A DNA stretch of 64,000 nt from Spirochaetia bacterium. GTDB lineage: Bacteria; Spirochaetota; Spirochaetia; DSM-2461. Shown piece after piece: positions 22,628-34,310 of this stretch. The stretch spans positions 448,001 through 512,000 of the forward strand of contig OY764216.1 of the NCBI GenBank assembly GCA_963668315.1, in the 5' to 3' direction. The notes beneath the pieces were generated by a model, which saw only the letters and a program-made list of their open reading frames with translations, did no database searches and was not told where the DNA came from. A program made the position numbers and the translations under genes. How positions within the stretch are numbered: position 1 is the stretch's first letter; the number at the start of each line of letters is the position of its first letter.

Positions 22628-23593
22628 ATGGGTGAGATTAAAAAGAAGCCGTTAATCCAACGGCAGAAAGTTATGTTTCATGTGGTTTATGCACTGATCC
22701 CCCTGGCCGTCTTCTCGATCTATCTCTTCGGGTGGAGATCTCTTATGATCCTCGCCGTAGTCAACGCCGCCGGATTTCTAAGCGAATACATTTTCGCGCG
22801 AACCTATAAGAAACAGGTCAGTTCAGCTGTTTTCGTCACCAATTTCCTCTTTGCCCTTTCCATGCCCCCCGCCGTCCCCCTGTGGATAGCCGTAGTGGGT
22901 ATCGTCTTCGGCGTTGTTTTCGGGAAAATGGTGTTCGGAGGCTTCGGAAGAAACGTTTTCAATCCGGCCATCTCCGGCCGTGCTTTCGTATACATCAGCT
23001 TCGGTGTACCCCTGACGGCAGGATTCGTCCAGCCCGCCGGAGGATTTCCCGGAGGATTCTCCACCTGGCTCCACGGCGTTGACGCCGTCTCCCGGGCTAC
23101 GCCCCGGGCCGCCCTCACGGGCGGAGAGCCCTTCCCCTTGTCCCGCCTGATTCTCGGGAATACGGCCGGCTCCCTCGGTGAGACCTGCGCCCTGCTGATC
23201 ATCCTGGGGGGGATCTATCTTATCTGGAAGAAGGCGGCCAGCTGGCGGATAATGCTCGCCGTCCTTATCGGTTTTCTCGTCACCCAGTCGGCCCTCTATT
23301 TCGGAGGCGTGGACGGTGTAGTCAATCCGGTAAGCAGCCTTTTCACCGGCAGCCTTCTCTTCGCCCTGGTCTTCATGGCAACCGATCCGGTTTCCTCATC
23401 CCAGTCGACCGACGGGGGACGCTGGATATACGGATTAACCATAGGCATACTGGTCTCCCTGATCCGTGTCTTCTCCATATGGGTGGAGGGGGTAACCTTC
23501 GCCATTCTTCTGGCCAACATGTTCGCTCCCCTCCTGGACCACTACATGAAGGAAGCCAAGAAAAAAAAGAAGCAGCGGGAGGCCGCCCGATGA
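22628..23593 (+). CDS. NqrB/RnfD-family membrane subunit
   Basis: KMVFGGFGRNVFNPA, DAVSRATP (FMN Thr), GSLGET, FMATDPVSS. Confidence 0.9.
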   Translation: MGEIKKKPLIQRQKVMFHVVYALIPLAVFSIYLFGWRSLMILAVVNAAGFLSEYIFARTYKKQVSSAVFVTNFLFALSMPPAVPLWIAVVGIVFGVVFGKMVFGGFGRNVFNPAISGRAFVYISFGVPLTAGFVQPAGGFPGGFSTWLHGVDAVSRATPRAALTGGEPFPLSRLILGNTAGSLGETCALLIILGGIYLIWKKAASWRIMLAVLIGFLVTQSALYFGGVDGVVNPVSSLFTGSLLFALVFMATDPVSSSQSTDGGRWIYGLTIGILVSLIRVFSIWVEGVTFAILLANMFAPLLDHYMKEAKKKKKQREAAR

Positions 23594-24204
23594 GCGATGC
23601 AAAAAAGAAAAACCAGTTCTACATAGAAAGAATAAGACCCGTCACCGTCACGGCCGTTCTGACCATCATCTGCATCACTCTGGTCTCCCTTCTCTATCTG
23701 TCCACCCGCGACCAGGTTCTCGCCAACGAGGGTCTGGTTCTGAAAAAGGCCGTTCTCTATGCGGCGGGACTGGCCGTTCCCGGTTCGAACCACGAAATCA
23801 ATGAGCTGTACGACAGCCGCGTGACCGAAGAGGACGGGATTTTCACCGTGAAGGATGATGCCGATAAAACGAAAGCCTACGCCTTCATCCAGGCGGGCCC
23901 CGGACTCTGGGGCGAAATCCAGGCGGTCGTTGCCTTCGATACCGATCTGGCCACCTTCGCCGGAGTGGATTTCATCAGCCAGAACGAGACCCCCGGACTG
24001 GGCGCGAGGATAACCGAGTCCTGGTTCAAGGAACAGCTCAGGGGTCGGAAAGCTCCCCTGACCATGAATCCGGAAGGAACCGAATCGACCGCGTCCTCCG
24101 AAATAGACGCCATCACCGGAGCCTCCCGAACCAGCGATTACGCCCTTTCCCTATTCAACAAAGCCGGTGAAAAAGCCGCCGCTCTCGAAGGGAGGTTACC
24201 CTAA
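23590..24204 (+). CDS. NqrC/RnfG-family FMN-binding subunit
   Basis: GPGLWGEI, QNETPGLGARI, DAITGAS. ATGA overlap with the previous gene. Confidence 0.88.
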   Translation: MSDAKKKNQFYIERIRPVTVTAVLTIICITLVSLLYLSTRDQVLANEGLVLKKAVLYAAGLAVPGSNHEINELYDSRVTEEDGIFTVKDDADKTKAYAFIQAGPGLWGEIQAVVAFDTDLATFAGVDFISQNETPGLGARITESWFKEQLRGRKAPLTMNPEGTESTASSEIDAITGASRTSDYALSLFNKAGEKAAALEGRLP

Positions 24205-24797
24205 TGGCAGGAAAAGCACTGAAAACATTCACCGCCCCCCTGGGAAAGGACAATCCCGTCTTCGCCCAGATTCTGGGCATCTGCTCGACTCTGGCGGTGA
24301 CGAATAACTTACAGAATACGGTGGTGATGGTACTGGGCGTGATGTTTACCACGACCCTCTCCTCCTTCACCTTTTCCCTCTTGCGAAAGGTGATACCCGG
24401 AAGAATCCGCATGATCGCCGAAACCATGATCATCGCGACCTTCGTCATCATCGTGGACATTATGCTCAGGGCATATATGCCCGAGATCTGGCAGCAGCTG
24501 GGCCCCTACGTGGGACTGATTATCACCAACTGCATCGTCATGGGCCGGATGGAAGCCTTCGCCGCCGCCAATCCCCCCGGGCTGAGCCTGATAGACGGAC
24601 TGGCTTCGGGTATGGGCTATGCCTACGTTCTCGTGGTCATAGCCTTCTTCAGGGAACTGCTGGGAGCGGGAACCATCTGGGGGATTTCCGTACTGGGAGA
24701 CTGGTGGAACAACTGGGCGATCATGATCATGCCTCCCGGGGCATTCTTCATGCTGGCCATTTTCATTTGGGTTGTCAAAGGGAGGATGAAGGAATGA
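24204..24797 (+). CDS. NqrD/RnfE-family membrane subunit
   Basis: QILGICSTLAVT, YVGLIITNCIVMGR, PPGAFF. Confidence 0.92.
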   Translation: MAGKALKTFTAPLGKDNPVFAQILGICSTLAVTNNLQNTVVMVLGVMFTTTLSSFTFSLLRKVIPGRIRMIAETMIIATFVIIVDIMLRAYMPEIWQQLGPYVGLIITNCIVMGRMEAFAAANPPGLSLIDGLASGMGYAYVLVVIAFFRELLGAGTIWGISVLGDWWNNWAIMIMPPGAFFMLAIFIWVVKGRMKE

Positions 24798-25384
24798 CAG
24801 AACTGCTGCCGGCCGCCGTATTTTTCGGCTCAATTTTTACCAGTAACATACTTCTGGCCAACTATCTGGGAATGTGCTCATTCCTTTCCGTATCCAAGGA
24901 GATCGAGACTTCGGCGGGACTGGGGGCGGCGGTCATCTTCGTCATGGCCGTCACGAGCGCCCTCAACTGGCTCGTCTATAATCTGATCCTAATCCCCCTG
25001 GGGCTGGACTATCTCAGATTCATCGTCTTCATCGTCGTCATCGCCGCCTTCGTTCAGCTGGTGGAAATGATTATCGAGCGGATAAGCGAGGGGCTCTACG
25101 CCGCCCTGGGAATCTTCCTCCCCCTTATCACGGTCAACTGCGCCATTCTGGGAGTCAGCCTTTTCATGGTGATACGGGACTACAACTTCATCAACAGCTT
25201 CTTCTTCGGGCTGGGAAGCGGCATCGGCTGGTTCCTGGCTATCATGGCCATGGCGGGAATTCGCAAGAAGATCGCCGGGGCGCAGATTCCGAAGGGACTT
25301 GAAGGGGCGGGCATCACCCTAATTATCGCCGGTATGATGGCTCTGGCCTTCATGGGATTCTCCGGCATGATCAATGTGACTTAG
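24794..25384 (+). CDS. NqrE/RnfA-family membrane subunit
   Basis: LGMCSFL, GIFLPLITVNCAILG. ATGA overlap with the previous gene. Confidence 0.92.
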   Translation: MTELLPAAVFFGSIFTSNILLANYLGMCSFLSVSKEIETSAGLGAAVIFVMAVTSALNWLVYNLILIPLGLDYLRFIVFIVVIAAFVQLVEMIIERISEGLYAALGIFLPLITVNCAILGVSLFMVIRDYNFINSFFFGLGSGIGWFLAIMAMAGIRKKIAGAQIPKGLEGAGITLIIAGMMALAFMGFSGMINVT

Positions 25385-25393
25385 GAGGCCGCG

Positions 25394-26494
25394 ATGTTAA
25401 CTCAACTGCTGATAAGCGTGGGCACCATTACGGGGATAACGGTTATTCTGGCCGTTATCCTGGTTATCGCCGACGCCTTTATCGCCGATTACGGGGAAGT
25501 GGAACTCACCATCAACGGACAGAAGAAACTGACGGTCAAAGGCGGGCGCCCCCTTCTGGGAACTCTTATTGAAGAGGAGATATTCATCCCTTCGGCCTGC
25601 GGAGGCCGGGGTTCCTGCGGTCTGTGCAAGCTCAAGGTGGAGTCGGGGGCCGGGCAGTATCTGCCCACCGAACTTCCCTGGCTGAGCAAGGAGGAACAGG
25701 ATCAGAACATCCGCCTCTCCTGCCAGCTCAAGGTGAAGCAGGATATGGCCATACGCATTCCCGAGGAACTCTTCAGCGTCCGCCGCTTTCAGGCCCGGGC
25801 GGAGAAAATCACCGACCTGACCCACGATATCAAGGAACTGCGGCTCAAGCTGCTTTCCCCGAACACCATAGATTTCAAGGCGGGCCAGTTCGTTCAGATC
25901 CAGGTTCCCGAGTACAAATTAAGCGACGAATCGGTCTTCCGTGCCTATTCGGTCTCCTCCTCCCCTTCCGAGACGGATACGGTAGAGCTGGAAGTGCGGC
26001 TTGTTCCTGAGGGGATCTGCACCACCTGGGTTCACCAGTTTCTGAAGGAAGGACAGGAAGTCACCATCAACGGACCCTACGGGGAGTTTTTCCTGCGCGA
26101 CACGGAAAGGGACATCGTCTGCATCGCCGGAGGATCGGGCAACGCCCCCATAAAGTCCATCATGATGGATATGGCGGAAAAGGGAAATCCCCGCAAGCTC
26201 ACTTACTTCTACGGAGCCAGAGGGAAAAAGGACCTGGTCCTTCCCGATGATATGAAAGCCATCGCCGACAGGCTTCCCAACGGAAGTTACGTCCCCGTCC
26301 TTTCCGAACCGGACGAAAACGACAAGTGGGAGGGAGAAACGGGCTTCGTAACCGATGCGGTTGCAAGATATCTTAAATCCGGAGATAATACGGAAGCTTA
26401 TCTTTGCGGAAGCCCGGGTATGATTGACGCCTGCATCAAAGTCCTTACATCGAAGGGCGTTCCCGAAGAACTGATCTACTACGACAAATTTTAG
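25394..26494 (+). CDS. nqrF: NqrF-like NADH dehydrogenase subunit (TM anchor + 2Fe-2S + FAD/NAD domains)
   Basis: PSACGGRGSCGLC...RLSCQ, RAYS, GPYGEF, AGGSG, YLCGSP, YYDKF. Confidence 0.88.
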   Translation: MLTQLLISVGTITGITVILAVILVIADAFIADYGEVELTINGQKKLTVKGGRPLLGTLIEEEIFIPSACGGRGSCGLCKLKVESGAGQYLPTELPWLSKEEQDQNIRLSCQLKVKQDMAIRIPEELFSVRRFQARAEKITDLTHDIKELRLKLLSPNTIDFKAGQFVQIQVPEYKLSDESVFRAYSVSSSPSETDTVELEVRLVPEGICTTWVHQFLKEGQEVTINGPYGEFFLRDTERDIVCIAGGSGNAPIKSIMMDMAEKGNPRKLTYFYGARGKKDLVLPDDMKAIADRLPNGSYVPVLSEPDENDKWEGETGFVTDAVARYLKSGDNTEAYLCGSPGMIDACIKVLTSKGVPEELIYYDKF

Positions 26495-26504
26495 GAGGAA
26501 ACCG

Positions 26505-26966
26505 ATGAAAGAAAACCCAGCTAAGCACAGGGTATTGGAAAACATGAAACCGGGTGTCATCTCCCTCCACGGATTTCTGGGCTCCGACTCACGGGACCTG
26601 GATACGATAATAGAGCACGATGCGGGAGAGCTCGAGCGGCTGGGTCTGACCAGAGAGCAGATTGCCGACAAGCTTGAAGTGATACGGGATAAAGCCCAGG
26701 AAGGGCTCGGCGTTTACGTTAAGCTCAACGCCACCTACATGGCCAAGGCCGATTCCATCAGGGGAAAGATTCCCTGTCCCTTCGACCATGCGGGGATTTA
26801 CAGCAAAACGGTTATCACCATACAGAATATCGATACCGATGAGGAGATGATCTATACAGACCTGGGAATTCACCTCATAAGGGAGCACGGATTCTTTCAG
26901 GGAAAGGGAAGCATCTTCCGTATGGAACCGGAAGCCCTCGCCGATCTTCTGGAGAAATGCTGCTGA
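26505..26966 (+). CDS. Hypothetical protein at the end of the Nqr-like operon
   Basis: AGGAGG RBS, 10 nt after nqrF. GFLGSD, CPF and HLIREHGFFQG look like conserved motifs. Confidence 0.7.
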   Translation: MKENPAKHRVLENMKPGVISLHGFLGSDSRDLDTIIEHDAGELERLGLTREQIADKLEVIRDKAQEGLGVYVKLNATYMAKADSIRGKIPCPFDHAGIYSKTVITIQNIDTDEEMIYTDLGIHLIREHGFFQGKGSIFRMEPEALADLLEKCC

Positions 26967-27006
26967 CAGCGGACGTACAGAATAACAAACAGGAGAGAAC
27001 AAACCT

Positions 27007-27366
27007 ATGAGATTTCTCGGTAATTTGATCTGGCTTATATTCGGAGGCCTGGAAGCCGCCCTTGGCTGGGCCCTGGCGGGACTCCTCCTCTGCATTACCA
27101 TAATCGGCATTCCCTTCGGGATTCAATGCCTGAAAATCGGCGGTTTCGTACTCCTTCCCTTCGGTCGGCCCATAGAAAACACCGGAAGCGGCCTGACAAG
27201 TCTGATCGGGAATATCCTCTGGCTCATCATCTTTGGATGGGGTCTGGCCCTGGGCCACTTCCTGGCGGGGATACTCTTCTCTATTACCATCATAGGTATT
27301 CCCTTCGGGAAGCAGCATTTCAAGCTGGCCCGGCTCGCCCTCCTTCCCTTCGGTAAAACAGTCTAG
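27007..27366 (+). CDS. YccF-domain inner membrane protein
   Basis: Duplicated GNLIWLIFGG...ITIIGIPFG...LLPFG motif. Confidence 0.9.
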   Translation: MRFLGNLIWLIFGGLEAALGWALAGLLLCITIIGIPFGIQCLKIGGFVLLPFGRPIENTGSGLTSLIGNILWLIIFGWGLALGHFLAGILFSITIIGIPFGKQHFKLARLALLPFGKTV

Positions 27367-27432: not shown

Positions 27433-28272
27433 ATGCTTTTCATTTTATTGGCCGTCCTTTGTTCGACGGGCGTCTCTCTGATACTGAAAATCACCCATAC
27501 CCGCAAGATGGCGGTGGAACCGATTTTCCTTATAAATTACGTAACCGCTACTGCCGCCTCGGCCCTGCAGGGAGACTTCTCCACCCTGCCGCGTCTTACG
27601 GATGATCTGGGATGGGGATTCTATCTTTCCGCGGTGTTCCTGGGGTTCCTCTTTATCGGGGCGTTCTACGTTTACAGAAAAACCATCGCCGAACTGGGAA
27701 TCTCCCTCTCCTCCACGATCTCCCGGCTCTCCGCCGGCCTCCCCCTGCTGGGAACGATATTGCTCTTCCATGAAACGCCCCATCTCCGTCAGATCATAGG
27801 AATGGGACTTATGTTTCTGGCCATTCCCCTGGCTTCGGAAAAATCCGACGACGCCCGGCACAAGGGTCACAACTTCTGGGGAGCCATTCTGTTCCTCGCC
27901 TTCGGAATCAACGATTTCACCTTGAAAGTGGTGGGGGAACTCTGGCCCCAGGCGAGCGAGGGGGCCTTCCTCTTTTTCGTTTTCTTGACCAGCACGGTTA
28001 TCGCCCTTGTCCTCACTCTGGCCAAGGGGCACTCCTTCAACCCCGCCCTGCTTCTTCCGGGCATCATCCTGGGCGTTATAAATCTGGGATCCTCCTTTTT
28101 CATCCTCAAATCCCTGCGGCGGGTGGATGCCATTATCGTCTATCCTCTCCTGGCGCTGGGAATAATTTTCATGGGGCTGGTAACGGGAATGCTCTTCTGG
28201 AAGGAGAAACTGACAAAGGGCCATGCCATTTTTATCGCGATAGCGGCGGTGGCGGTTCTGCTGATTTCCTGA
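27433..28272 (+). CDS. DMT/EamA-family transporter
   Basis: About 10 TMs with an internal repeat (LFHET / LFWKEKL). Confidence 0.8.
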   Translation: MLFILLAVLCSTGVSLILKITHTRKMAVEPIFLINYVTATAASALQGDFSTLPRLTDDLGWGFYLSAVFLGFLFIGAFYVYRKTIAELGISLSSTISRLSAGLPLLGTILLFHETPHLRQIIGMGLMFLAIPLASEKSDDARHKGHNFWGAILFLAFGINDFTLKVVGELWPQASEGAFLFFVFLTSTVIALVLTLAKGHSFNPALLLPGIILGVINLGSSFFILKSLRRVDAIIVYPLLALGIIFMGLVTGMLFWKEKLTKGHAIFIAIAAVAVLLIS

Positions 28273-28476
28273 GATGAAGATTACGATCTATGTCCGGGCT
28301 CTATACTTATACATGGGATAATAATGAGGGGAGAACTGTTTCTCCGGAACCGATGAAACGAATGATTGACCTGTCATACTTCGTATTCTATCAACTGTAC
28401 ATTATAGTAAACTTCATGTTAAAACATTAATCGGAACGGCGTAAAAAATATCAAAAATCTCCCGAGGACGGTCCCC

Positions 28477-30129
28477 ATGATCTACCATCTGTTGAGCAGA
28501 TTATCTGCAATTCTGCTTCTACTGCTCATCCCCCTGCCCTTTGCCACGGCACTGAATGCGAGCCTGATCTCATCGGAGACCGATGTGGTGATCCGCAGCG
28601 ACGGAAAAGCCGATATATACTATAGCCTCCACTGGAAGACTTCCGGAGATAAGATGCACGGGTTCTATTTCCAGGGAAGCGCGGTAAAACCGGAATTCGA
28701 TCTCCAGAACTGTTTCGCAGATATTAACGACGACGAACGGGTTCCTCTGGATATTACTTCCATGGGAGGAGGACTCTACGATATTGTACTGGCCTATAAC
28801 GGGGGATTCACCGGGGAGGCTTACTATTACCTGCATTACGGGGCCGATCTGAGGGGTGGCGGATTTACCGGTCAAACCCGATCGGAAGACTACGGAGAGC
28901 TTTTCTATTTCGACTGGGCTCCGGTAGATTGGGAATACTCTCTGGAGCACCGTACGGTACGGGTTCAGCTGCCCGTTCAGGTCCCCTCTCAAGAGTTGAG
29001 TCAAGATTGGGTCTCCGACCGGGGAATCCTTACGGAACCCTATGTAAACCGCAACTATCTGGTCGATTACTACGGAACACCCGGAGATGACGGAAAGAAT
29101 TATCTGACCCTCCGGTTCCACAAAAAGCATGTGCCCGCCTATGACTCCATGCGAATACAGTTTTACCTGCCCCTGGCCACATCCGGTCAGACCGGAATCG
29201 AAGGCTCAGGGGAAAGAACTCTTTCTAACGGGCGACTTAAGACCCTGACCGTCAAGAAAATAGATTCTGCGCAGCTGATAACGTTAATATTTCTGGCAGC
29301 GGTTTTGATTGTGGCGGTTCTGCTTTACCTTCTGAAAGACCGGAAGTTTTCCCATATGGCAGACAAAGTGGATCAGATATCCTGGGCCGGAGACGACTGG
29401 CTGCCCCCCAGGCTGGAGGTGGGTTCTTTTCAGGTTGAGGGAAAGATCATAAAGGATCTGCATCCCGTAGAAGCGGCCCTGCTTCTGGAACTCCCTCTGC
29501 CGGATATTACAGCGTTGCTGGCGGAATCTCTGGAAGACCGACGGATTATCCATATACGGAGCCGTGATCCCTTTGAAGTGGATGTACTTGATCGTGAAAA
29601 GGCGACCGACGAAATGGACGCCCGGTTTCTATCCTGTTTTCTGCCCGACGGCCGGCTGTTGACGAAAGTGCTCTGTGACTTTTTCGAGATACTGATCATG
29701 CAGCTCCAGGAGAAAATCTGGGACTGCGATATTGAGGCGACCAAGACCTATTATAGAAAGGAACTTGAAGGCCAGGGAAAACCCGAAGAAAACATAAAGG
29801 ATAATTCAGCTTCCCCTTCTCCGAACCATTACCGTCACTACCCCCATTACTACAACCGCTGGTGGTATTTAAGCCAAGGCAAGGAACCCCATGAAGCCAT
29901 AGCCCTGCCTGATGAACTGAGCGGTGGATACAGCCGCTTTATGTCTTCCTCCTCCTGCTTCAGCGGCTGCTTCACACCGGCGGCCTTCCAATCGGGCAGC
30001 ATCAATGCCTGTCACTCCGCCTGCCATAATGCCTGCCATTCGGCCTGTCACAGTGCCTGTCACAGCGCCTGCCATTCAGCTTGTCATTCCGCCTGCCATT
30101 CAGCCTGCGTCTCCGGGGGAAGCCATTGA
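28477..30129 (+). CDS. DUF2207-like single-pass membrane protein with C-terminal (ACHS)n Cys/His tail; candidate radical SAM substrate
   Basis: Signal peptide, DVVIRSDGKADI and LHPVEAALLL (DUF2207-like by recall), one TM near residues 267-286, and the tail ACHSACHNACHSACHSACHSACHSACHSACHSACVSGGSH. Confidence 0.8.
   Translation: MIYHLLSRLSAILLLLLIPLPFATALNASLISSETDVVIRSDGKADIYYSLHWKTSGDKMHGFYFQGSAVKPEFDLQNCFADINDDERVPLDITSMGGGLYDIVLAYNGGFTGEAYYYLHYGADLRGGGFTGQTRSEDYGELFYFDWAPVDWEYSLEHRTVRVQLPVQVPSQELSQDWVSDRGILTEPYVNRNYLVDYYGTPGDDGKNYLTLRFHKKHVPAYDSMRIQFYLPLATSGQTGIEGSGERTLSNGRLKTLTVKKIDSAQLITLIFLAAVLIVAVLLYLLKDRKFSHMADKVDQISWAGDDWLPPRLEVGSFQVEGKIIKDLHPVEAALLLELPLPDITALLAESLEDRRIIHIRSRDPFEVDVLDREKATDEMDARFLSCFLPDGRLLTKVLCDFFEILIMQLQEKIWDCDIEATKTYYRKELEGQGKPEENIKDNSASPSPNHYRHYPHYYNRWWYLSQGKEPHEAIALPDELSGGYSRFMSSSSCFSGCFTPAAFQSGSINACHSACHNACHSACHSACHSACHSACHSACHSACVSGGSH
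30007..30114 (+). repeat. Nine imperfect tandem 12-bp units encoding A-C-H/V-S/N
   Basis: GCC TGT CAC TCC / GCC TGC CAT AAT / GCC TGC CAT TCG / GCC TGT CAC AGT / GCC TGT CAC AGC / GCC TGC CAT TCA / GCT TGT CAT TCC / GCC TGC CAT TCA / GCC TGC GTC TCC. Confidence 0.95.
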
Positions 30130-31451
30130 AAACATTAGGGATTTCCGATTTACAGTGGATCGACAGCTATTTCCATCATATCCGTAAATATCTCTTTTTC
30201 CGCAGGGAAGACGGGGTGCTGATATTTCCCCCCAACCGGGTTACCCGCCTCAATGGAACCGGCCAGGAACTTCTGAGTCATCTCTTTTCCGGCCGGAGCA
30301 TTGCCTCATTCCCTGGACTGAATGGAGCAGACCGCTGCCGGGATGTGAATGTATTCTTCTCCAATCTGAAAGCCTTTTACGAAGATCAGTCCATAAACCT
30401 GGATCAGGCGGAAGCGGTAGAGCGCAGGCCCTACGACTTCCAATTCACCCGGCTGCCCATATTGGGGGAAATTGCCCTTACTTACCGCTGCAATAACCGC
30501 TGTCTGTTTTGCTATGCCGGCTGCGGCAAAGAATCTCCGGCAGCCCAAGGCACTCCGAAAGAGCTGACCACCAGGGGCTTTAAAAAAATCATCCGGATTT
30601 TCCGTGATGAGGCCCGCATTCCCTTCTTCTCCTTTACCGGGGGAGAACCTCTGCTGCGGGGGGATCTGGAATCCCTGATATCCTATGCCGAAAAGAGAGG
30701 ACTGCGGACCAACCTCATTACCAATGGCACCCTGGCTACGGAACAACGGAGCAGAAAACTCTACCGTGCAGGTCTGAGAACCGCCCAGGTCAGTATCGAG
30801 GCACCTGAAGCGGAACTGCACAACCGCTTGACCGGAAGCTCTTCCTTCCAGAAGACATGCCAGGGCATCGCCGCCCTGAAATCAGCCGGCATAAAGGTGC
30901 AGACCAATACGACTCTTACCGCGCTGAATGTGGACAGCACAGAAAAGATGCCGGCCTTTTTGAAAGAGCTGGGCATCGACAGATTTTCCATGAATCTCTT
31001 TATTCCCACAGAAAAATCGCCGGGGAATGACAAACTTTTTCTTTCCTATAGTCAAATCGGACCGGTGGTGGACCGGGTCAGAAAAGAGGCGGCAAGGCTC
31101 TCCATGACCTTCTACTGGTATTCCCCCCTGCCCCACTGCCACTTCAATCCCCTTTCCCGGGGTATGGGAAACAAATCCTGCGCGGCCATGGACGGTTTGA
31201 TATCCGTAACGCCTACGGGCGATATTCAGCCCTGCTCCTCCTATGCAGAATCCATGGGCAGCCTGCTCTCCGGAAAGTTCCAGGATATCTGGTTTTCTAA
31301 GCGTGCAGGTTTTTTCAAAGAGAAGCGCTACGCCCCCGAGGAATGTTCAGGATGCGACCGCTTCATCGCCTGCCAGGCGGCCTGCCCTTTATACTGGCAA
31401 TACGCCGGAACCTGTGAAATCAACAAAAGGGAGGCCCTCCGATGCCCATGA
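30126..31451 (+). CDS. Radical SAM/SPASM peptide-maturase-like enzyme with PqqD/RRE-like N-terminus
   Basis: CNNRCLFC (CxxxCxxC), FTGGEPLLR, LITNG, and SPASM cysteines CAAMDG...PCS...CSGC-x5-CQAAC. A TTG start at 30126 overlaps the upstream TGA and has GGGGGA just before it; the ORF track start at 30081 is probably too early. Confidence 0.92.
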   Translation: MKTLGISDLQWIDSYFHHIRKYLFFRREDGVLIFPPNRVTRLNGTGQELLSHLFSGRSIASFPGLNGADRCRDVNVFFSNLKAFYEDQSINLDQAEAVERRPYDFQFTRLPILGEIALTYRCNNRCLFCYAGCGKESPAAQGTPKELTTRGFKKIIRIFRDEARIPFFSFTGGEPLLRGDLESLISYAEKRGLRTNLITNGTLATEQRSRKLYRAGLRTAQVSIEAPEAELHNRLTGSSSFQKTCQGIAALKSAGIKVQTNTTLTALNVDSTEKMPAFLKELGIDRFSMNLFIPTEKSPGNDKLFLSYSQIGPVVDRVRKEAARLSMTFYWYSPLPHCHFNPLSRGMGNKSCAAMDGLISVTPTGDIQPCSSYAESMGSLLSGKFQDIWFSKRAGFFKEKRYAPEECSGCDRFIACQAACPLYWQYAGTCEINKREALRCP

Positions 31452-32359
31452 AATACCACCTCCTTCCTAACCTGACCCTCCACTGCCGCCTGGGAATTTT
31501 CGCCTTACTGGAGACTTCGGGAGTCGCCCTTCAGATGCTGGTATCCCGGGGCGGCTTCCCCGGGATACTGCTGATGCTCGGGGGAATCTCCTTCCTTCTG
31601 TCAGAAAACTACAACAATGCTCCGGAAGATCAGGGATATGCAGACTGGAAACCGGTTACCTTCAAGGAACTAAGCCGTATCCGCATCAATATGAAGGACA
31701 CACGCCAATTCACATTGCCCATGTATTTCCGTTCTTCCGCGTCGGTGGGGGCCGTTATAATTCTTCTGGCGCTGCTGATTATCCCCCTTTTGCTGGAGGC
31801 CCATCCGGGGCGTTATTACTATTTGCCCCTGGTCGACCTGTTTATCATTACCTTGCCCTTGTTTTTCAGCGGAAAGATCCGGCTTTTTTACCCCTCCCTG
31901 CTGGATATGAAGTTCAATGCCTTTGATGGAATTCTCCAGGAGACTCCTGAGGGAAGTGATATCTGCGTAACCCCCTATTTACGGTTCGACCGGGATAAAG
32001 CAGGACACCTGATTCCCGAAGATCTCCGTTTTATGGTGGAATTAAGACGGAATCCTCCCGATTTTCTGGGGGCTCAGTTTCAGGTGGCCATAAATAATGG
32101 ACCCAATGGAGCCGTACCCTATATGTACGCCGTTCTACTCTTTCGAAAAGAGGCGGTTCCCCAGGGGCAAAAATCATCCTTCGATCATCTTGCCGGACTG
32201 GACCTGGGATCTTTTTTCATAACGGAAACCGGGGAAGATGAGGATTTCCAGACCCTGGTAATCCGGCAGAAAACCACCGGAGGGGGTTATCATACCGAAC
32301 CCCAGGACTGCCGGAATCTGTATCGTCATATTCTGAAGGTAATGAATTCACTGGAATAA
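31448..32359 (+). CDS. Uncharacterised membrane protein, third gene of the radical SAM operon
   Basis: ATGA overlap with the rSAM stop (alternative ATG at 31442). Two hydrophobic hairpins followed by a soluble domain (FLGAQFQVAINNGPNGAVPYMY, GGGYHT). Confidence 0.75.
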   Translation: MKYHLLPNLTLHCRLGIFALLETSGVALQMLVSRGGFPGILLMLGGISFLLSENYNNAPEDQGYADWKPVTFKELSRIRINMKDTRQFTLPMYFRSSASVGAVIILLALLIIPLLLEAHPGRYYYLPLVDLFIITLPLFFSGKIRLFYPSLLDMKFNAFDGILQETPEGSDICVTPYLRFDRDKAGHLIPEDLRFMVELRRNPPDFLGAQFQVAINNGPNGAVPYMYAVLLFRKEAVPQGQKSSFDHLAGLDLGSFFITETGEDEDFQTLVIRQKTTGGGYHTEPQDCRNLYRHILKVMNSLE

Positions 32360-32384
32360 AGCTTACAATAGGGAGTTTTGCCGT

Positions 32385-34310
32385 TTGGAAAAATCAGAAT
32401 TCACAAAAAAGGAACTCTATAGCATATTACCTTTTATCTGCACTCTTGTTTTCGTTGCAGGATTTTTCATGGTCGATTTTCGGCTGAATGACACGACGAT
32501 ACGGGCAGATAATCCTGAAGCGAAAAATGGGATTTACACCCTTACCTGTGAGGACCTTCAGAAAAACAGGCTTGTTTCACTTGGCGGGGAATGGGCTTTT
32601 TATCCCGAACTTTTTCTATCAAATAAACGGCAGGATCTACATACCGGCGAAAAAAGATATCTGCAAGTGCCCGGAGGCTGGAACAATATACCATCGCCCA
32701 TAAATTCTCCCGGCAAGGCAATGAGCACGAACTCCTTGAATCCCGTTTTCTACGGAACATATCATCTGACCCTGATAAACAGAACTGAAAAACGACAATG
32801 GCTGCTCTACTTTCCGGCTGCTTTTTCAGAAGCCTTCACTCTGTATATAGATGACGAGAAAATTGCGGAGAGCGGAAAGATTGCGACTTCTGCATCAGAA
32901 AGTCAGCCTGAATATCGGGTTATGGTGGCAGATCTGGACCTGGCCCCATCCGGACAAGCAGACATATGGATTCAGACATCCAGCTTCCAATTTGAAAACG
33001 GAGGTCTGAGAAGACCTATTCTGCTGGGAGAACGCGATACGATTCAAAAGCTAGAGCAGTCTAATTCCAGGAAAGATGTCTTCATCATTGGTATATTATG
33101 CGGCTTCATCTTCTATTTCAGCCTGACAATGATAATAAATAGAAAAAATGACAAGCCCCTATTTTATTTAATCTATGCTTCTGTCATAACGGTTTTATAT
33201 ACAGCCACCAGCAATGCTATGCTGATAAATGAGTGGATACCCGATCTTTCATTCCGTATAATGGATATGTGGCAGTACATGCTGGCCATTTCAGGCGGTT
33301 GTCTTTTTATATTGCTTATTCATTTCCTATATGAAGAAGAAAGCCAGAATACCGTTAAACGAATCAGTCTTGTAAAAACAGTCTTCTTCCTTATTTTGAA
33401 CGTAGTTCTGGAACGCCAGGTCATCAGCCGGTTTATTCTGCTCTTCAGCTTAATCACATTGCTGGAATTTTTATATGGGATTTATATTCTATCTAAAGCC
33501 ATAATACATACGAAAGAGGGAATCATTCCGCTGCTGATTGGCACGGCCATCCTTTTAGCCAGTATTCTATATGATCAGCTTCTTGTCTCCCTGGTGATTT
33601 TTTCACCCTTTGGCGTGATGACTCCCATAGGACTGACTGTCTTTATTTTGAGCTTTGCTGTCATTGTTTCGATTGAACATGAGCGTACCTTGATAAAATT
33701 GCAAGAAACAAAAGCAGCCAATCAACGTCTGGAGGAAAACAAAGTAAAGCTGGAGTCACAGAACATAGAACTGCAGCAGCTGCACGATTTGAAAGCGAGA
33801 GAAGCCAGTACCGATTTTTTAACAGGACTATTTAATCGCCGCTACATCGATGAAGCCCTTCAGTCTATGGCGGAAATATCTATGCATGACGATGGAACAA
33901 TGTCGCTAAGCATATTATTAATCGATGTCGATTACTTTAAGCAGATTAACGATCGCTGGGGGCATGATGCGGGAGATGCCGCCCTGCAAAAAATTTCTTC
34001 TCTCCTTAAAAAAAATCTCCGTGGAAATGATATTGCGGGAAGATACGGAGGAGATGAATTCATCGTACTCCTGCCGGCTATCGATTTGAAATCGGCGAAA
34101 CTCATTGCCGATCGATTCGCAAGTCAGGCTGCCTCCAAACATATTTCAGATAACAATAGGGATCTTCAGGTAACGCTCAGCATCGGGTGCATCAGCTGGA
34201 AAGGCTCAGTACAGCAGTATGACTTTGAAAAACTCATCACAGCTGCGGACACAGCGCTTTATAAGGCAAAGGAGGGCGGACGCAATCAATGCTGCGCAGA
34301 ATCGTTATGA
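32385..34310 (+). CDS. Diguanylate cyclase with 7TM-DISM-like sensor
   Basis: LGGEWAFYP/VPGGW extracellular domain, about 7 TMs, coiled coil, TDFLTGLFNRR, DVDYFKQIND, RGND I-site, GRYGGDEF. Confidence 0.9.
   Translation: MEKSEFTKKELYSILPFICTLVFVAGFFMVDFRLNDTTIRADNPEAKNGIYTLTCEDLQKNRLVSLGGEWAFYPELFLSNKRQDLHTGEKRYLQVPGGWNNIPSPINSPGKAMSTNSLNPVFYGTYHLTLINRTEKRQWLLYFPAAFSEAFTLYIDDEKIAESGKIATSASESQPEYRVMVADLDLAPSGQADIWIQTSSFQFENGGLRRPILLGERDTIQKLEQSNSRKDVFIIGILCGFIFYFSLTMIINRKNDKPLFYLIYASVITVLYTATSNAMLINEWIPDLSFRIMDMWQYMLAISGGCLFILLIHFLYEEESQNTVKRISLVKTVFFLILNVVLERQVISRFILLFSLITLLEFLYGIYILSKAIIHTKEGIIPLLIGTAILLASILYDQLLVSLVIFSPFGVMTPIGLTVFILSFAVIVSIEHERTLIKLQETKAANQRLEENKVKLESQNIELQQLHDLKAREASTDFLTGLFNRRYIDEALQSMAEISMHDDGTMSLSILLIDVDYFKQINDRWGHDAGDAALQKISSLLKKNLRGNDIAGRYGGDEFIVLLPAIDLKSAKLIADRFASQAASKHISDNNRDLQVTLSIGCISWKGSVQQYDFEKLITAADTALYKAKEGGRNQCCAESL

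What the first reader, a model, noticed from the sequence alone, without database searches (positions are those of the whole stretch)
28477..32359. Candidate new RiPP-like system: membrane protein with an (ACHS)n tail, RRE-radical SAM/SPASM enzyme and a membrane partner
Seen in the sequence: three genes coupled by overlapping stop/start codons (TTGA at 30126-29, ATGA at 31448-51). Gene 1 has a signal peptide, an extracytoplasmic domain, one TM, and a C-terminal part ending in eight A-C-H-[S/N] units plus ACVSGGSH. Gene 2 has CxxxCxxC, a full SPASM Cys set and an N-terminal extension. Gene 3 is an unknown membrane protein. I saw no small precursor ORF, protease or exporter nearby. Established knowledge: RRE+rSAM+SPASM enzymes typically crosslink peptides encoded next to them, either Cys thioethers (sacti-/ranthipeptides) or aromatic-X-X cyclophanes (triceptides, including His-containing motifs). 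Inference: the substrate is the tail of the 550-aa membrane protein, which by topology faces the cytoplasm where the enzyme is. The product would be a poly-macrocyclised, membrane-tethered tail, possibly for metal handling or envelope signalling, rather than a secreted peptide. I cannot confirm novelty without a search.
Basis: partly seen in the sequence, partly recalled or inferred. Interest (0 to 1): 0.95.

Follow-up and report, generated by a model that had tools for sequence, protein, structure and literature searches.

The report
Membrane protein tail with radical-SAM maturase
A three-gene cassette conserved mainly in spirochaetes encodes a membrane protein that ends in nine near-invariant Ala-Cys-His-x units, followed by a radical SAM/SPASM enzyme that likely cross-links those cysteines, which would be peptide-type (RiPP) chemistry on a whole membrane protein.

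Summary
Three same-strand genes lie at 28477-32359, with TTGA and ATGA stop/start overlaps.

- Gene 1 has a signal peptide, a beta-sandwich ectodomain (distant DUF2207), one TM helix, a cytoplasmic domain and a tail of 8 ACH[S/N] units plus ACVSGGSH.
- Gene 2 is a radical SAM/SPASM enzyme with a weakly PqqD/RRE-like N-domain.
- Gene 3 is a membrane protein of no known family.

The triad is obligate. Of 80 enzyme-selected genome loci, 78 have gene 1 upstream; the other 2 are at contig edges. 77 of those 78 carry the tail. Of gene-3-selected metagenome loci with room, 42/43 have the enzyme, 37/39 the tail and 25/25 gene 1.

The tail has 9 units in 75/78 cases. It is 92.6% identical in protein but 48.7% identical at codon position 3, so selection acts on the protein.

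The enzyme is far below the cut-off of every curated family tested (AhbD, NirJ, PqqE, PapB, CXXX-repeat, ACGX, CrpC).

Best reading (0.55): the enzyme installs thioether cross-links in the cytoplasmic tail. The chemistry is untested. The closest precedent is CrpC/CrpA (2026). No paper in the searched library describes this cassette. This scan noted the same cassette earlier on two other genomes.

Verdict: new variant of a known kind, interest 0.68.

The parts
28477..30129 (+). Gene 1: 550-aa type-I membrane protein carrying the Cys-His repeat tail (predicted substrate)
   Evidence: ORF. Homologues at 31-51% identity in alignment A3. Directly upstream of the enzyme in 78/80 loci.
28477..28551 (+). 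Signal peptide, about aa 1-25 (MIYHLLSRLSAILLLLLIPLPFATA, then LNAS); no lipobox Cys
   Evidence: Hydrophobic window aa 1-32 and model helix 2-17. The cleavage site is my reading of the sequence.
28555..29184 (+). Periplasmic beta-sandwich ectodomain (aa 27-236), distant DUF2207 N-terminal domain
   Evidence: pLDDT above 90. Foldseek matches ribophorin I/OST1 (8pn9_E, E 7.6e-8) and the N-domains of M1 aminopeptidases. PF09972 hits 8 of 47 family members but not the window's own protein.
29275..29334 (+). Single transmembrane helix (aa 267-286)
   Evidence: Hydropathy and charge bias; model helix 264-299.
29464..29772 (+). Conserved cytoplasmic folded domain (aa 330-432; H-H-E-E-H-H-H pattern, winged-helix-like by my reading) with an invariant WD(C)D motif at aa 415-418
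   Evidence: pLDDT about 90-96; invariant columns.
29938..29979 (+). Conserved pre-tail motif FMSSSSCFSGCFTP (aa 488-501), a possible recognition sequence
   Evidence: S491, C494, G497 and C498 are invariant in A3. The motif is absent in the divergent lineage L104, which still keeps the repeat.
30007..30126 (+). Tail: 9 xCxx units (8 ACH[S/N] plus ACVS) followed by GGSH
   Evidence: 75 of 78 tails have 9 units, Cys is present at 699/699 unit positions and Ala at 690/699. Protein identity is 92.6% against 48.7% at codon position 3.
30126..31451 (+). Gene 2: radical SAM/SPASM enzyme (441 aa from TTG 30126; the ORF is open from 30081)
   Evidence: Pfam Radical_SAM 92 bits and SPASM 30.1 bits. More than 120 homologues at 50% identity or more.
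30126..30449 (+). N-terminal domain of gene 2 (aa 1-108), divergent PqqD/RRE-like
   Evidence: Conserved VLILPPNRVYKLNxTG block. hhalign against 24 true PqqD proteins gives 86.7% probability, E 4.3e-6. The nearest named Atlas clusters are PqqD at 0.87-0.89. The Pfam PqqD model and the PDB profile search find nothing.
30489..30512 (+). CxxxCxxC radical SAM cluster motif (C122, C126, C129)
   Evidence: Invariant in 25/25 sequences; positions.
31137..31385 (+). SPASM region with seven invariant Cys (C338 to C420)
31448..32359 (+). Gene 3: membrane protein of unknown family (303 aa from ATG 31448; another ATG at 31442)
   Evidence: No family found. Model pLDDT 93.1. Downstream of the enzyme in 76/80 loci by tblastn, plus a distant form in L067.
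31895..32356 (+). Gene 3 cytoplasmic C-terminal alpha/beta domain (aa 150-303)
   Evidence: Model. Best structural matches are type III secretion chaperones: Spa15 at Z 6.8, rmsd 3.6 over 117 residues, and Foldseek probability 0.95-0.97 at E 0.03-0.05. These are weak and are a lead only.

Best explanation
The radical SAM/SPASM enzyme (gene 2) likely acts on the cytoplasmic C-terminal tail of the membrane protein encoded just upstream (gene 1), and is predicted to convert the nine repeat cysteines into intramolecular thioether cross-links.

Shown here:
- The three genes are adjacent and overlap.
- The triad is obligate, whichever gene is used to find it.
- The tail is under very strong selection at the protein level.
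- The enzyme has the radical SAM motif and a seven-Cys SPASM region.

Inferred:
1. The tail and the enzyme are on the same (cytoplasmic) side of the membrane.
2. The divergent PqqD-like N-domain of the enzyme docks on gene 1, perhaps on the FM.S.SCF.GCF.P motif or the folded cytoplasmic domain.
3. Each Cys thiol is joined to a carbon of a nearby residue, with loss of 2 H per unit. That would give a ladder of about 8-9 small rings studded with histidines.
4. Gene 3, whose cytoplasmic domain weakly resembles peptide-binding secretion chaperones, would hold the tail or the enzyme at the membrane.
5. The product stays tethered to the membrane protein rather than being released.

I put about 0.8 on 'the tail is the enzyme's substrate' and about 0.55 on the full statement including thioether chemistry.
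For: 1. Gene order and coupling: TTGA and ATGA overlaps.

2. Co-occurrence starting from the enzyme. 232 relatives were found in one-genome-per-species contigs, and the best 80 were examined. Gene 1 is upstream in 78/80, with the 2 misses at contig edges. The tail is present in 77/78. Gene 3 is downstream in 76/80; 2 misses are contig edges and 2 loci have a divergent membrane gene at that place, shown to be a distant gene 3 in one of them (L067).

3. Co-occurrence starting from gene 3 in metagenomes. Among loci with room, the enzyme is present in 42/43, the tail in 37/39 and gene 1 in 25/25. In 5/5 genomes of the phylum sample that had gene 3 and were tested, gene 1 is adjacent.

4. Tail constraint. 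75/78 tails have 9 units. Cys is at 699/699 positions, Ala at 690/699 and His at 560/699, with the exceptions at the first and last units. The last 40 codons are 92.6% identical in protein but 48.7% identical at codon position 3. A deep-branching lineage at roughly 30% overall identity keeps the repeat.

5. Enzyme type. It has the rSAM and SPASM domains. Its best solved relatives include peptide-modifying enzymes: SkfB (E 1.4e-20), PqqE, SuiB and CteB. The N-domain is PqqD-like in a profile-profile comparison at 86.7%.

6. Precedent. CrpC, an rSAM/SPASM enzyme with a predicted RRE, installs thioethers on C-terminal Cys repeats of the protein CrpA, including an ACAGM motif (PMC13692751, sections 8 and 12).

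7. No conserved protease or exporter was found in the 80 loci.
Against: - No chemistry has been measured, and all support is comparative.
- The PqqD Pfam model does not hit the N-domain even at E up to 10. A profile of that domain finds no RRE structure in the PDB.
- The enzyme's highest curated HMM scores are to the heme enzymes AhbD and NirJ2, though far below their cut-offs.
- The repeat lacks the Asp/Glu acceptors typical of Cys-X3-Asp ranthipeptide motifs (recalled).
- The fixed number of units, and the fact that units keep their identity by position (second unit ACHN, last ACVS), would also suit a defined metal-binding structure.
- The invariant His has no assigned role in thioether formation.
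- The tail is modelled only as a low-confidence helix, pLDDT about 46.
Confidence: 0.55

Rival explanations
1. The tail is the enzyme's substrate but the chemistry is not Cys thioether formation. Candidates are oxidation of Cys to formylglycine or dehydroalanine (as in anaerobic sulfatase maturases), a Cys-His or carbon-carbon cross-link on the invariant histidines (triceptide-like), or epimerisation.
For: - His is nearly invariant at unit position 3, in 560 of 699 units, with the exceptions at the end units. A simple Cys-to-acceptor model does not explain this.
- The enzyme belongs to no curated thioether-maturase family: StsB 96.4 bits against a cut-off of 625, PapB 68.6 against 340.
- The anaerobic sulfatase maturase also matches weakly.
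Against: - Cys is the only fully invariant residue of the unit, at 699/699.
- From recall, characterised RRE-bearing rSAM/SPASM enzymes paired with Cys-rich peptides form thioethers.
- CrpC does so on a protein (PMC13692751, section 12).
- Sulfatase maturases lack an N-terminal RRE-like domain (recalled).
Confidence: 0.2
2. The tail is mainly a metal- or Fe-S-binding, or redox-sensing, module. It has 9 Cys and 7-8 His at a fixed spacing of four residues, which recalls metallothioneins. The neighbouring rSAM enzyme does not cross-link it. The enzyme would either act on another molecule or use the tail as a docking or cluster-handling site.
For: - The unit number is fixed: 9 in 75/78 genome tails and in 37 of the 40 tails found in the metagenome loci.
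- Units keep their identity by position.
- Cys and His are both invariant.
- If the tail is helical, as in the low-confidence model, the i/i+4 spacing puts all Cys on one face and all His beside them (my inference).
- The authors of the CrpA work also suspect metal binding for their protein (PMC13692751, discussion passage seen).
Against: - A metal-binding tail alone does not explain the obligate pairing with an RRE-like rSAM/SPASM enzyme from whichever gene one starts.
- No metal transporter or chaperone gene is conserved in the 80 loci.
- This rival is not exclusive with modification. A cross-linked His ladder could still bind metal.
Confidence: 0.15
3. Gene 1 is an outsized precursor. After modification the tail is cut off and released or exported as a free RiPP.
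For: The leader-then-core order (a conserved motif followed by the repeat) resembles RiPP precursors.
Against: - No protease or exporter is conserved beside the cassette in 80 loci.
- The EamA gene upstream in the window is not conserved elsewhere.
- The ectodomain, TM helix and cytoplasmic domain of gene 1 are conserved and confidently folded. That argues for a function of the whole protein.
Confidence: 0.05

Closest known systems
CrpC/CrpA of Methanococcus voltae (rSAM/SPASM family TIGR04463). Source: PMC13692751, 2026; I read the abstract, sections 8 and 12, and passages of the discussion.
   Same: An rSAM/SPASM enzyme with a predicted N-terminal RRE modifies a protein rather than a short peptide. 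The protein carries C-terminal Cys repeats, and the modification is a set of thioether cross-links. It is a three-gene cluster, and the product's function is unknown.
   Different: - Gene 2 scores 44.7 bits against TIGR04463, whose cut-off is 525, so it is not a member.
- CrpA is a soluble archaeal protein with 17-residue repeats and C-X-X-Q/D motifs.
- Here the carrier is a bacterial signal-peptide/TM protein with a 4-residue ACHx unit, and the partner is a membrane protein of unknown family.
- The paper's text has no occurrence of 'membrane'.
- Its three supplements held as text have no 'Spirochaet', 'DUF2207', 'Treponema' or 'ACHS'.
In-silico 'repeat target' systems in NCBIfam: the CXXX-repeat maturase TIGR04115 with its target TIGR04117, and the ACGX system rSAM TIGR04340
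   Same: An rSAM/SPASM gene sits next to a product with tandem four-residue Cys units. ACGX differs from ACHX by one residue.
   Different: - All three are below cut-off: TIGR04115 26.8 against 350, TIGR04117 10.6 against 50, TIGR04340 83.1 against 400.
- From recall, those targets are short peptides, not tails of a 550-aa membrane protein.
- I know of no characterised chemistry for them (recalled). No paper in the library holds 'TIGR04340' or 'TIGR04341'.
Thioether RiPP maturases: SkfB, CteB (SCIFF), PapB (freyrasin) and StsB
   Same: Same domain order of (RRE)-rSAM-SPASM. SkfB is the best solved match (E 1.4e-20) and CteB also matches. Like CteB, there are seven SPASM Cys rather than eight, which in CteB leaves an open iron site for a substrate Cys (recalled).
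   Different: Scores are far below the family cut-offs: StsB 96.4 against 625, PapB 68.6 against 340. Their substrates are free peptides with leader sequences.
DUF2207 membrane proteins (PF09972)
   Same: The ectodomain of gene 1 family members matches the DUF2207 N-terminal domain in 8 of 47 sequences (best E 9.3e-6). One database homologue is named DUF2207.
   Different: The window's own protein gives no Pfam hit even at E up to 10. I know of no DUF2207 protein described with a Cys-His repeat tail or an rSAM partner (recalled). No listed paper held 'DUF2207'.

Membership tests
Radical SAM superfamily (PF04055) | CxxxCxxC cluster motif and a match to the core domain above the gathering score | tested here: met
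   92 bits against a cut-off of 29.5. C122/C126/C129 are invariant in 25/25 sequences.
SPASM domain (PF13186) | C-terminal Cys-rich region, Cx9-15Gx4C ... Cx2Cx5Cx3C, holding auxiliary 4Fe-4S clusters | tested here: met
   30.1 bits against 21.5. Seven invariant Cys at 338, 352, 370, 407, 410, 416 and 420. Cluster binding itself was not tested.
RRE / PqqD-like domain (PF05402) | Match to the PqqD model, or a winged-helix fold of three strands and three helices | tested here: inconclusive
   - Pfam gives no hit at E up to 10.
- A PDB profile search finds no RRE.
- hhalign against one PqqD protein gives 5.4%.
- hhalign against an alignment of 24 PqqD proteins gives 86.7%, E 4.3e-6, over 46 columns.
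- The nearest named Atlas clusters are PqqD at 0.87-0.89.
CrpC family, TIGR04463 (rSAM_vs_C_rich) | Score of at least 525 bits | tested here: not met
   44.7 bits.
CXXX-repeat peptide maturase, TIGR04115 | Score of at least 350 bits | tested here: not met
   26.8 bits at gene 2.
Cys-Xaa-Xaa-Xaa repeat radical SAM target, TIGR04117 | Score of at least 50 bits | tested here: not met
   Tail (last 70 aa) scores 10.6 bits, E 0.47.
ACGX-system rSAM, TIGR04340 | Score of at least 400 bits | tested here: not met
   83.1 bits.
Cofactor rSAMs: AhbD (TIGR04545), NirJ2 (TIGR04055), PqqE (TIGR02109), MftC (TIGR03962) | Score above the equivalog cut-off (500, 500, 381 and 265 bits) | tested here: not met
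   127.9, 122.3, 95.6 and 87.7 bits.
Ranthipeptide and sactipeptide maturases: PapB (NF047865), StsB (NF045574) | Score above the cut-off (340 and 625 bits) | tested here: not met
   68.6 and 96.4 bits.
DUF2207 (PF09972), for gene 1 | Match to the N-terminal domain model | tested here: inconclusive
   The window's protein gives no hit. 8 of 47 family members match at E up to 0.01.
RiPP (as a class) | Ribosomal precursor with a recognition part and a core, modified by a dedicated enzyme, usually cleaved and released | not testable with these tools
   The motif-then-repeat order is present. Modification and cleavage cannot be seen in sequence. No protease or exporter is conserved nearby.
Type III secretion chaperone / YbjN-like fold, for the gene 3 C-domain | Alpha-beta-alpha fold match well above background | tested here: inconclusive
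   Best match is Spa15 at Z 6.8, with several other secretion chaperones and YbjN-family proteins at Z 4.9-5.7. All are under the Z 8 level that the tool calls common. Foldseek E is 0.03-0.05.

The most novel reading that the evidence does not exclude
An integral membrane protein carries a dedicated, enzyme-built cytoplasmic 'ladder' of about nine thioether rings lined with histidines. It is made in place by an RRE-type radical SAM enzyme with the help of a membrane-anchored chaperone-like partner. It serves as a permanent structural or metal-binding device that couples a periplasmic sensing domain to the cytoplasm. This would be the first RiPP-type maturation system whose product is a membrane protein rather than a peptide or soluble protein.
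Probability: 0.4. Interest if true: 0.85.

Novelty: new variant of a known kind. Interest (0 to 1): 0.68.

Why it matters
Radical SAM/SPASM maturases are known almost entirely from small secreted peptides. Cross-linking of a large protein was first shown in 2026.

This cassette would extend that chemistry to the cytoplasmic tail of a membrane protein. The enzyme has 232 relatives among one-genome-per-species contigs, and the best 80 of those loci all come from MAG-type records, named mostly as uncultured spirochaetes.

Three features make the hypothesis sharp and cheap to test by mass spectrometry: the substrate is almost invariant, the unit number is fixed, and the gene set is small and obligate.

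It would also give a first functional handle on a DUF2207-like membrane protein and on a protein family (gene 3) that has no annotation. That family has 228 clusters at E up to 1e-30 in the 1.84-billion-protein representative library.

Tried and rejected
- **Complex prediction.** I submitted gene 2, three 4Fe-4S clusters, SAM and gene 1 residues 450-550. The score was 0.22 against a mark of 0.32, so there is no verdict. It is not used as evidence either way.
- **RNA evidence.** No RNA holder is listed for 28300-32500. Four DNA-type runs from one study hold the stretch. No reads were laid.
- **Sequence-level RRE tests.** Three found nothing usable: the Pfam PqqD model, a PDB profile search with the N-domain (only designed coiled coils at E 0.64 and above), and hhalign against a single PqqD protein (5.4%).
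- **Gene 3 fold.** Foldseek against the PDB gave no match at E up to 0.001.
- **Gene 1 fold search.** The list was filled by the ectodomain, so the cytoplasmic domain was not tested on its own.
- **Weak tail-like hits in relative G013.** These are alternative frames of a QKGM-repeat gene and were dropped. Real gene 1 hits among the 60 relatives are therefore 4, not 5.
- **Apparent fusions.** P0015/L022 (gene 1 joined to gene 2 without the tail), P0297 (gene 1 joined to the gene 3 C-domain) and P0260 (gene 2 to gene 3 read-through) all sit on short or single metagenome contigs. I treat them as deletions or assembly errors, not as evidence of natural fusion.
- **Promoter.** I considered a promoter in the 204-nt gap before gene 1 (TTGACC, 17 nt, TATCAA by eye). 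The scan did not list it, so I make no claim.
- **Literature.** No paper on this cassette was found. The terms 'ACHSACHS', 'CHSACHSA', 'TIGR04340' and 'TIGR04341' occur in no paper of the library. Subscription-only papers are not covered.

Full report
**1. What is in the window**

Three same-strand ORFs fill 28477-32359.
- Gene 1 is 28477-30129 (550 aa).
- Gene 2 is open from 30081, and a TTG at 30126 overlaps the TGA stop of gene 1 (TTGA). From that start it is 441 aa.
- Gene 3 starts at ATG 31448, overlapping the TGA of gene 2 (ATGA). A second ATG lies at 31442. It ends at 32359 (303 aa).

A 204-nt gap separates gene 1 from an upstream EamA-family gene at 27433-28272 (Pfam). Only 25 nt separate gene 3 from a 7TMR-DISM/GGDEF gene at 32385-34310. 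That gene lies in a stretch of 43% G+C, against 51-53% on either side.

Homologues of all three genes carry names such as Spirochaetia, Spirochaetales and Treponema, so the organism is very probably a spirochaete. Its genome is a single 5.62-Mb contig.

**2. Anatomy of gene 1**

Hydropathy finds only two hydrophobic segments, aa 1-32 and 261-291. The AlphaFold model (47-row alignment, mean pLDDT 80.7) shows:
- a confident beta-sandwich at 27-236;
- a long helix at 264-299;
- a confident folded domain at 330-432, with a helix-helix-strand-strand-helix pattern that I read as winged-helix-like;
- a low-confidence (about 46) helix over the tail.

The ectodomain matches ribophorin I/OST1 (E 7.6e-8) and the N-domains of M1 aminopeptidases. 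The Pfam DUF2207 N-terminal model hits 8 of 47 family members, but not this protein.

Net charge is -0.23 before the TM helix and +2.09 after it, averaged over 47 sequences, with after greater than before in 35. With the N-terminal signal peptide, this places the C-terminal half in the cytoplasm (inferred).

The last 40 residues (nt 30007-30126) are ACHS ACHN (ACHS)x6 ACVS GGSH. They are preceded at aa 488-501 by a conserved FMSSSSCFSGCFTP motif.

**3. Anatomy of gene 2**

Pfam gives Radical_SAM (92 bits) and SPASM (30.1 bits), both above their cut-offs. In 25 orthologues, C122/C126/C129 (CxxxCxxC) and seven C-terminal Cys are invariant.

No curated NCBIfam family is reached. Scores against cut-offs:

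| Family | Score (bits) | Cut-off (bits) |
|---|---|---|
| AhbD | 127.9 | 500 |
| NirJ2 | 122.3 | 500 |
| StsB | 96.4 | 625 |
| PqqE | 95.6 | 381 |
| MftC | 87.7 | 265 |
| ACGX-system rSAM | 83.1 | 400 |
| PapB | 68.6 | 340 |
| CrpC family TIGR04463 | 44.7 | 525 |
| CXXX-repeat maturase TIGR04115 | 26.8 | 350 |

The best solved relatives are SkfB (E 1.4e-20), a cytosylglucuronate decarboxylase, MoaA, PqqE, SuiB and CteB.

The first 108 residues or so are conserved (VLILPPNRVYKLNxTG...). The evidence that this is an RRE is mixed.
- Against: the Pfam PqqD model finds nothing at E up to 10, and a PDB profile search finds nothing relevant.
- For: the three nearest named ESM-Atlas clusters are PqqD at 0.87-0.89, which the tool rates as a lead only.
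- For: a profile-profile comparison with 24 true PqqD proteins from the same class gives 86.7% probability (E 4.3e-6, 46 columns), in the register of the PqqD 'LNxTG' turn. Against a single PqqD protein it was only 5.4%.

I therefore call it a divergent PqqD-like domain, probable but not settled.

**4. Anatomy of gene 3**

No Pfam or NCBIfam family matches, and all 88 close homologues are 'hypothetical'. A profile search of 1.84 billion representatives finds 500 clusters at E up to 0.001 and 228 at E up to 1e-30.

The model is confident (pLDDT 93.1). It has N-terminal helices at 11-31 and 36-47, strongly hydrophobic helices at about 96-115 and 125-140, and an alpha/beta domain at 150-303. The basic 53-95 loop and the basic residues after the last TM helix suggest that the loop and the C-domain are cytoplasmic (my inference).

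Structure searches give only weak matches. Foldseek has none at E up to 0.001. VIA-align's best is the secretion chaperone Spa15 (Z 6.8, rmsd 3.6, 117 residues), followed by several other type III chaperones and YbjN-family proteins at Z about 5. The tool warns that Z under 8 is common. I keep 'peptide-binding chaperone-like' as a lead only.

**5. Is the pairing real? Starting from the enzyme**

A scan of one genome per species (185,579 species) found 232 relatives, and the best 80 loci (50-61% identity) were kept. By my count of the record titles, 73 are named as spirochaete lineages, 4 as other phyla (Holophagaceae, Myxococcota, Myxococcales, Bacteroidaceae) and 3 simply as 'bacterium'.
- Gene 1 lies directly upstream in 78 of 80. 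The two misses (L025, L059) have the enzyme at the contig edge.
- 77 of those 78 end in the Cys-His repeat. The exception, L022, is a 4-kb contig where gene 1 runs into gene 2 without a tail.
- Gene 3 follows in 76 of 80 by tblastn. L053 and L075 end too early. L065 and L067 have a 345-352-aa membrane gene there. For L067 it aligns to the gene 3 profile at 91.5% probability. L065 was not tested.

**6. Starting from gene 3**

A metagenome scan kept 80 loci. Among those with enough upstream DNA, the enzyme is present in 42 of 43, the repeat tail in 37 of 39 and gene 1 in 25 of 25. The exceptions are L153, which has a weak enzyme fragment and no tail, and L194, which has the enzyme but no tail detected.

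In an even sample of the phylum, the gene 3 profile hits 8 of 401 genomes, including this one. In the 5 of those I tested, gene 1 is adjacent.

Among 60 relatives, gene 1 was found in 4, all in other families of the class. A fifth weak hit was spurious. So the cassette is patchy in distribution but internally obligate.

**7. The tail is under strong protein-level selection**

In 78 tails (77 loci plus the window), 75 have nine xCxx units and 3 have eight.

| Unit position | Residues (of 699 units) |
|---|---|
| 1 | Ala 690 |
| 2 | Cys 699 |
| 3 | His 560, Val 82, Tyr 56 (Val and Tyr mostly at the end units) |
| 4 | Ser 552, Asn 77, Asp 40, Gln 14, His 9 |

In nearly all tails the units keep their identity by position: 1 is AC[Y/H/V]S, 2 is ACHN, 3 is ACH[S/D], 4 is ACH[S/Q/H], 5-8 are ACHS and 9 is ACVS, followed by G[G/S]x[H/R].

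Over the last 40 codons of 75 tails, protein identity is 92.6% while third-position identity is 48.7%. Within the window the Ser codons are TCC, TCG, AGT, AGC and TCA. The repeat is therefore old and kept by selection on the protein, not by DNA slippage or a nucleic-acid signal.

A lineage in another class of the phylum, whose gene 1 scores only 276 bits, still ends in ...CHSACHAACHS(ACHS)x6ACVSGGSH although the pre-tail motif is gone.

Shorter and longer tails do occur on metagenome contigs. Proteins have about 3-5 or about 13 units, and one search found 4 units twice and 5 once. Some may be assembly artefacts, so the number is typical rather than absolute. The window's genome has no second such repeat.

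**8. Mechanism**

From recall, an RRE-type rSAM/SPASM enzyme encoded beside a Cys-repeat product forms Cys thioethers (sactionine or ranthionine) in the characterised cases I know of. In 2026 CrpC was shown to do this on C-terminal Cys repeats of a whole protein, CrpA, including an ACAGM motif (PMC13692751, sections 8 and 12).

By analogy, and given the obligate pairing, I infer that gene 2 binds the cytoplasmic part of gene 1 and cross-links its repeat cysteines, with a loss of 2 Da each.

Two ring registers fit the pattern: Cys(i) to Ala(i+3), or His(i) to Cys(i+3). Each register gives eight complete pairs. Each is broken in the last unit, where ACVS-G lacks both the His and the following Ala. 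This is my reading and is not tested.

Seven rather than eight SPASM Cys would leave an open iron site for a substrate thiol, as in CteB (recalled).

Gene 3 would act at the membrane as a holder of the tail or the enzyme (speculative).

The fixed unit number, the positional identity of units and the invariant His equally suit a defined metal site. I keep that as a rival, and note that the two are not exclusive.

**9. Other context**

In 44 of the 80 loci a fourth gene of about 210 aa precedes gene 1 on the same strand. By my reading of the sequences it has N-terminal hydrophobic helices and a charged, helical rest. Pfam gives only a weak Halogen_Hydrol hit, E 0.069. It is not found in this genome; the best hit has E 0.15. 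It is therefore accessory. No protease or exporter is conserved.

**10. Novelty**

Four full-text searches found no description of this cassette. The CrpC paper and its three supplements held as text do not mention it. Subscription-only literature was not searchable.

This scan had already noted the same cassette on two other genomes (e1-2787156 and e1-3933536) with the same reading. I re-tested their main claims here.

The kind of system (rSAM/SPASM maturation of Cys repeats, now also on proteins) is known. The enzyme family, the membrane-protein carrier, the ACHx unit and the gene 3 partner are not. My verdict is a new variant of a known kind, with interest 0.68.

Noticed in passing
L010:3675-4298 (+), L002:849-1475 (+), and 42 further loci of L010-L089: A fourth gene of about 210 aa lies directly upstream of gene 1, often overlapping its start, in 44 of 80 loci. 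It has N-terminal hydrophobic helices and a charged rest. Pfam gives only a weak Halogen_Hydrol hit (E 0.069). It was not found in the window's genome (best E 0.15).
   Followed up: partly
window 30081-30126 and gene-2 homologues P0119, P0122, P0130, P0184: The repeat DNA is also open in the frame of gene 2. Gene callers therefore give many gene 2 homologues N-termini such as MSFRLPFSL..., which are simply the tail read in another frame. The true starts are probably near the conserved L.WID block.
   Followed up: partly
P0006, P0017; L022/P0015; P0297; P0260: Several metagenome versions are frameshifted inside the repeat and read as ...PATTPAIPPAI.... Others are chimeric: gene 1 joined to gene 2 without the tail, gene 1 joined to the gene 3 C-domain, or gene 2 reading through into gene 3. 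These are probably assembly errors or decayed copies.
   Followed up: partly
window 32385-34310 (+): A 7TMR-DISM/GGDEF diguanylate cyclase gene starts 25 nt after gene 3. It lies in a 43% G+C stretch, against 51-53% around it. It is not conserved beside the cassette in other loci. Co-transcription here is possible but untested.
   Followed up: no
G000:C1:4260383-4260586 (L096:1486-1776, minus strand) and L096:1050-1574 (minus strand): The genome has one true PqqD-family gene (74 bits). The overlapping neighbour ORF of 174 aa looks to me like a lasso-peptide B2-type (transglutaminase-like) protein. This may be a separate RiPP cluster. That reading is from recall and was not scanned.
   Followed up: no
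G000:C1:5486166-5487128 (L090): Another rSAM/SPASM gene of this genome gives the best match to the CXXX-repeat maturase model TIGR04115, at 125.3 bits against a cut-off of 350. Its neighbourhood was not examined.
   Followed up: no
window 23479-27366: Upstream context on the same strand: ORFs that look like NqrC/D/E/F of a Na+-NADH:quinone reductase (my reading of the translations, not scanned), an unannotated 153-aa ORF at 26505-26966, and a YccF-family gene at 27007-27366 (154.8 bits).
   Followed up: no
P0266, P0270 and similar 320-345-aa proteins; Atlas cluster 3: The gene 3 family has a more distant branch of about 320-345 aa, as in L065 and L067. One Atlas look-alike cluster has Candidatus Thorarchaeota as its commonest recorded phylum. 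Whether these also sit beside rSAM genes and Cys-tail proteins was not examined.
   Followed up: no
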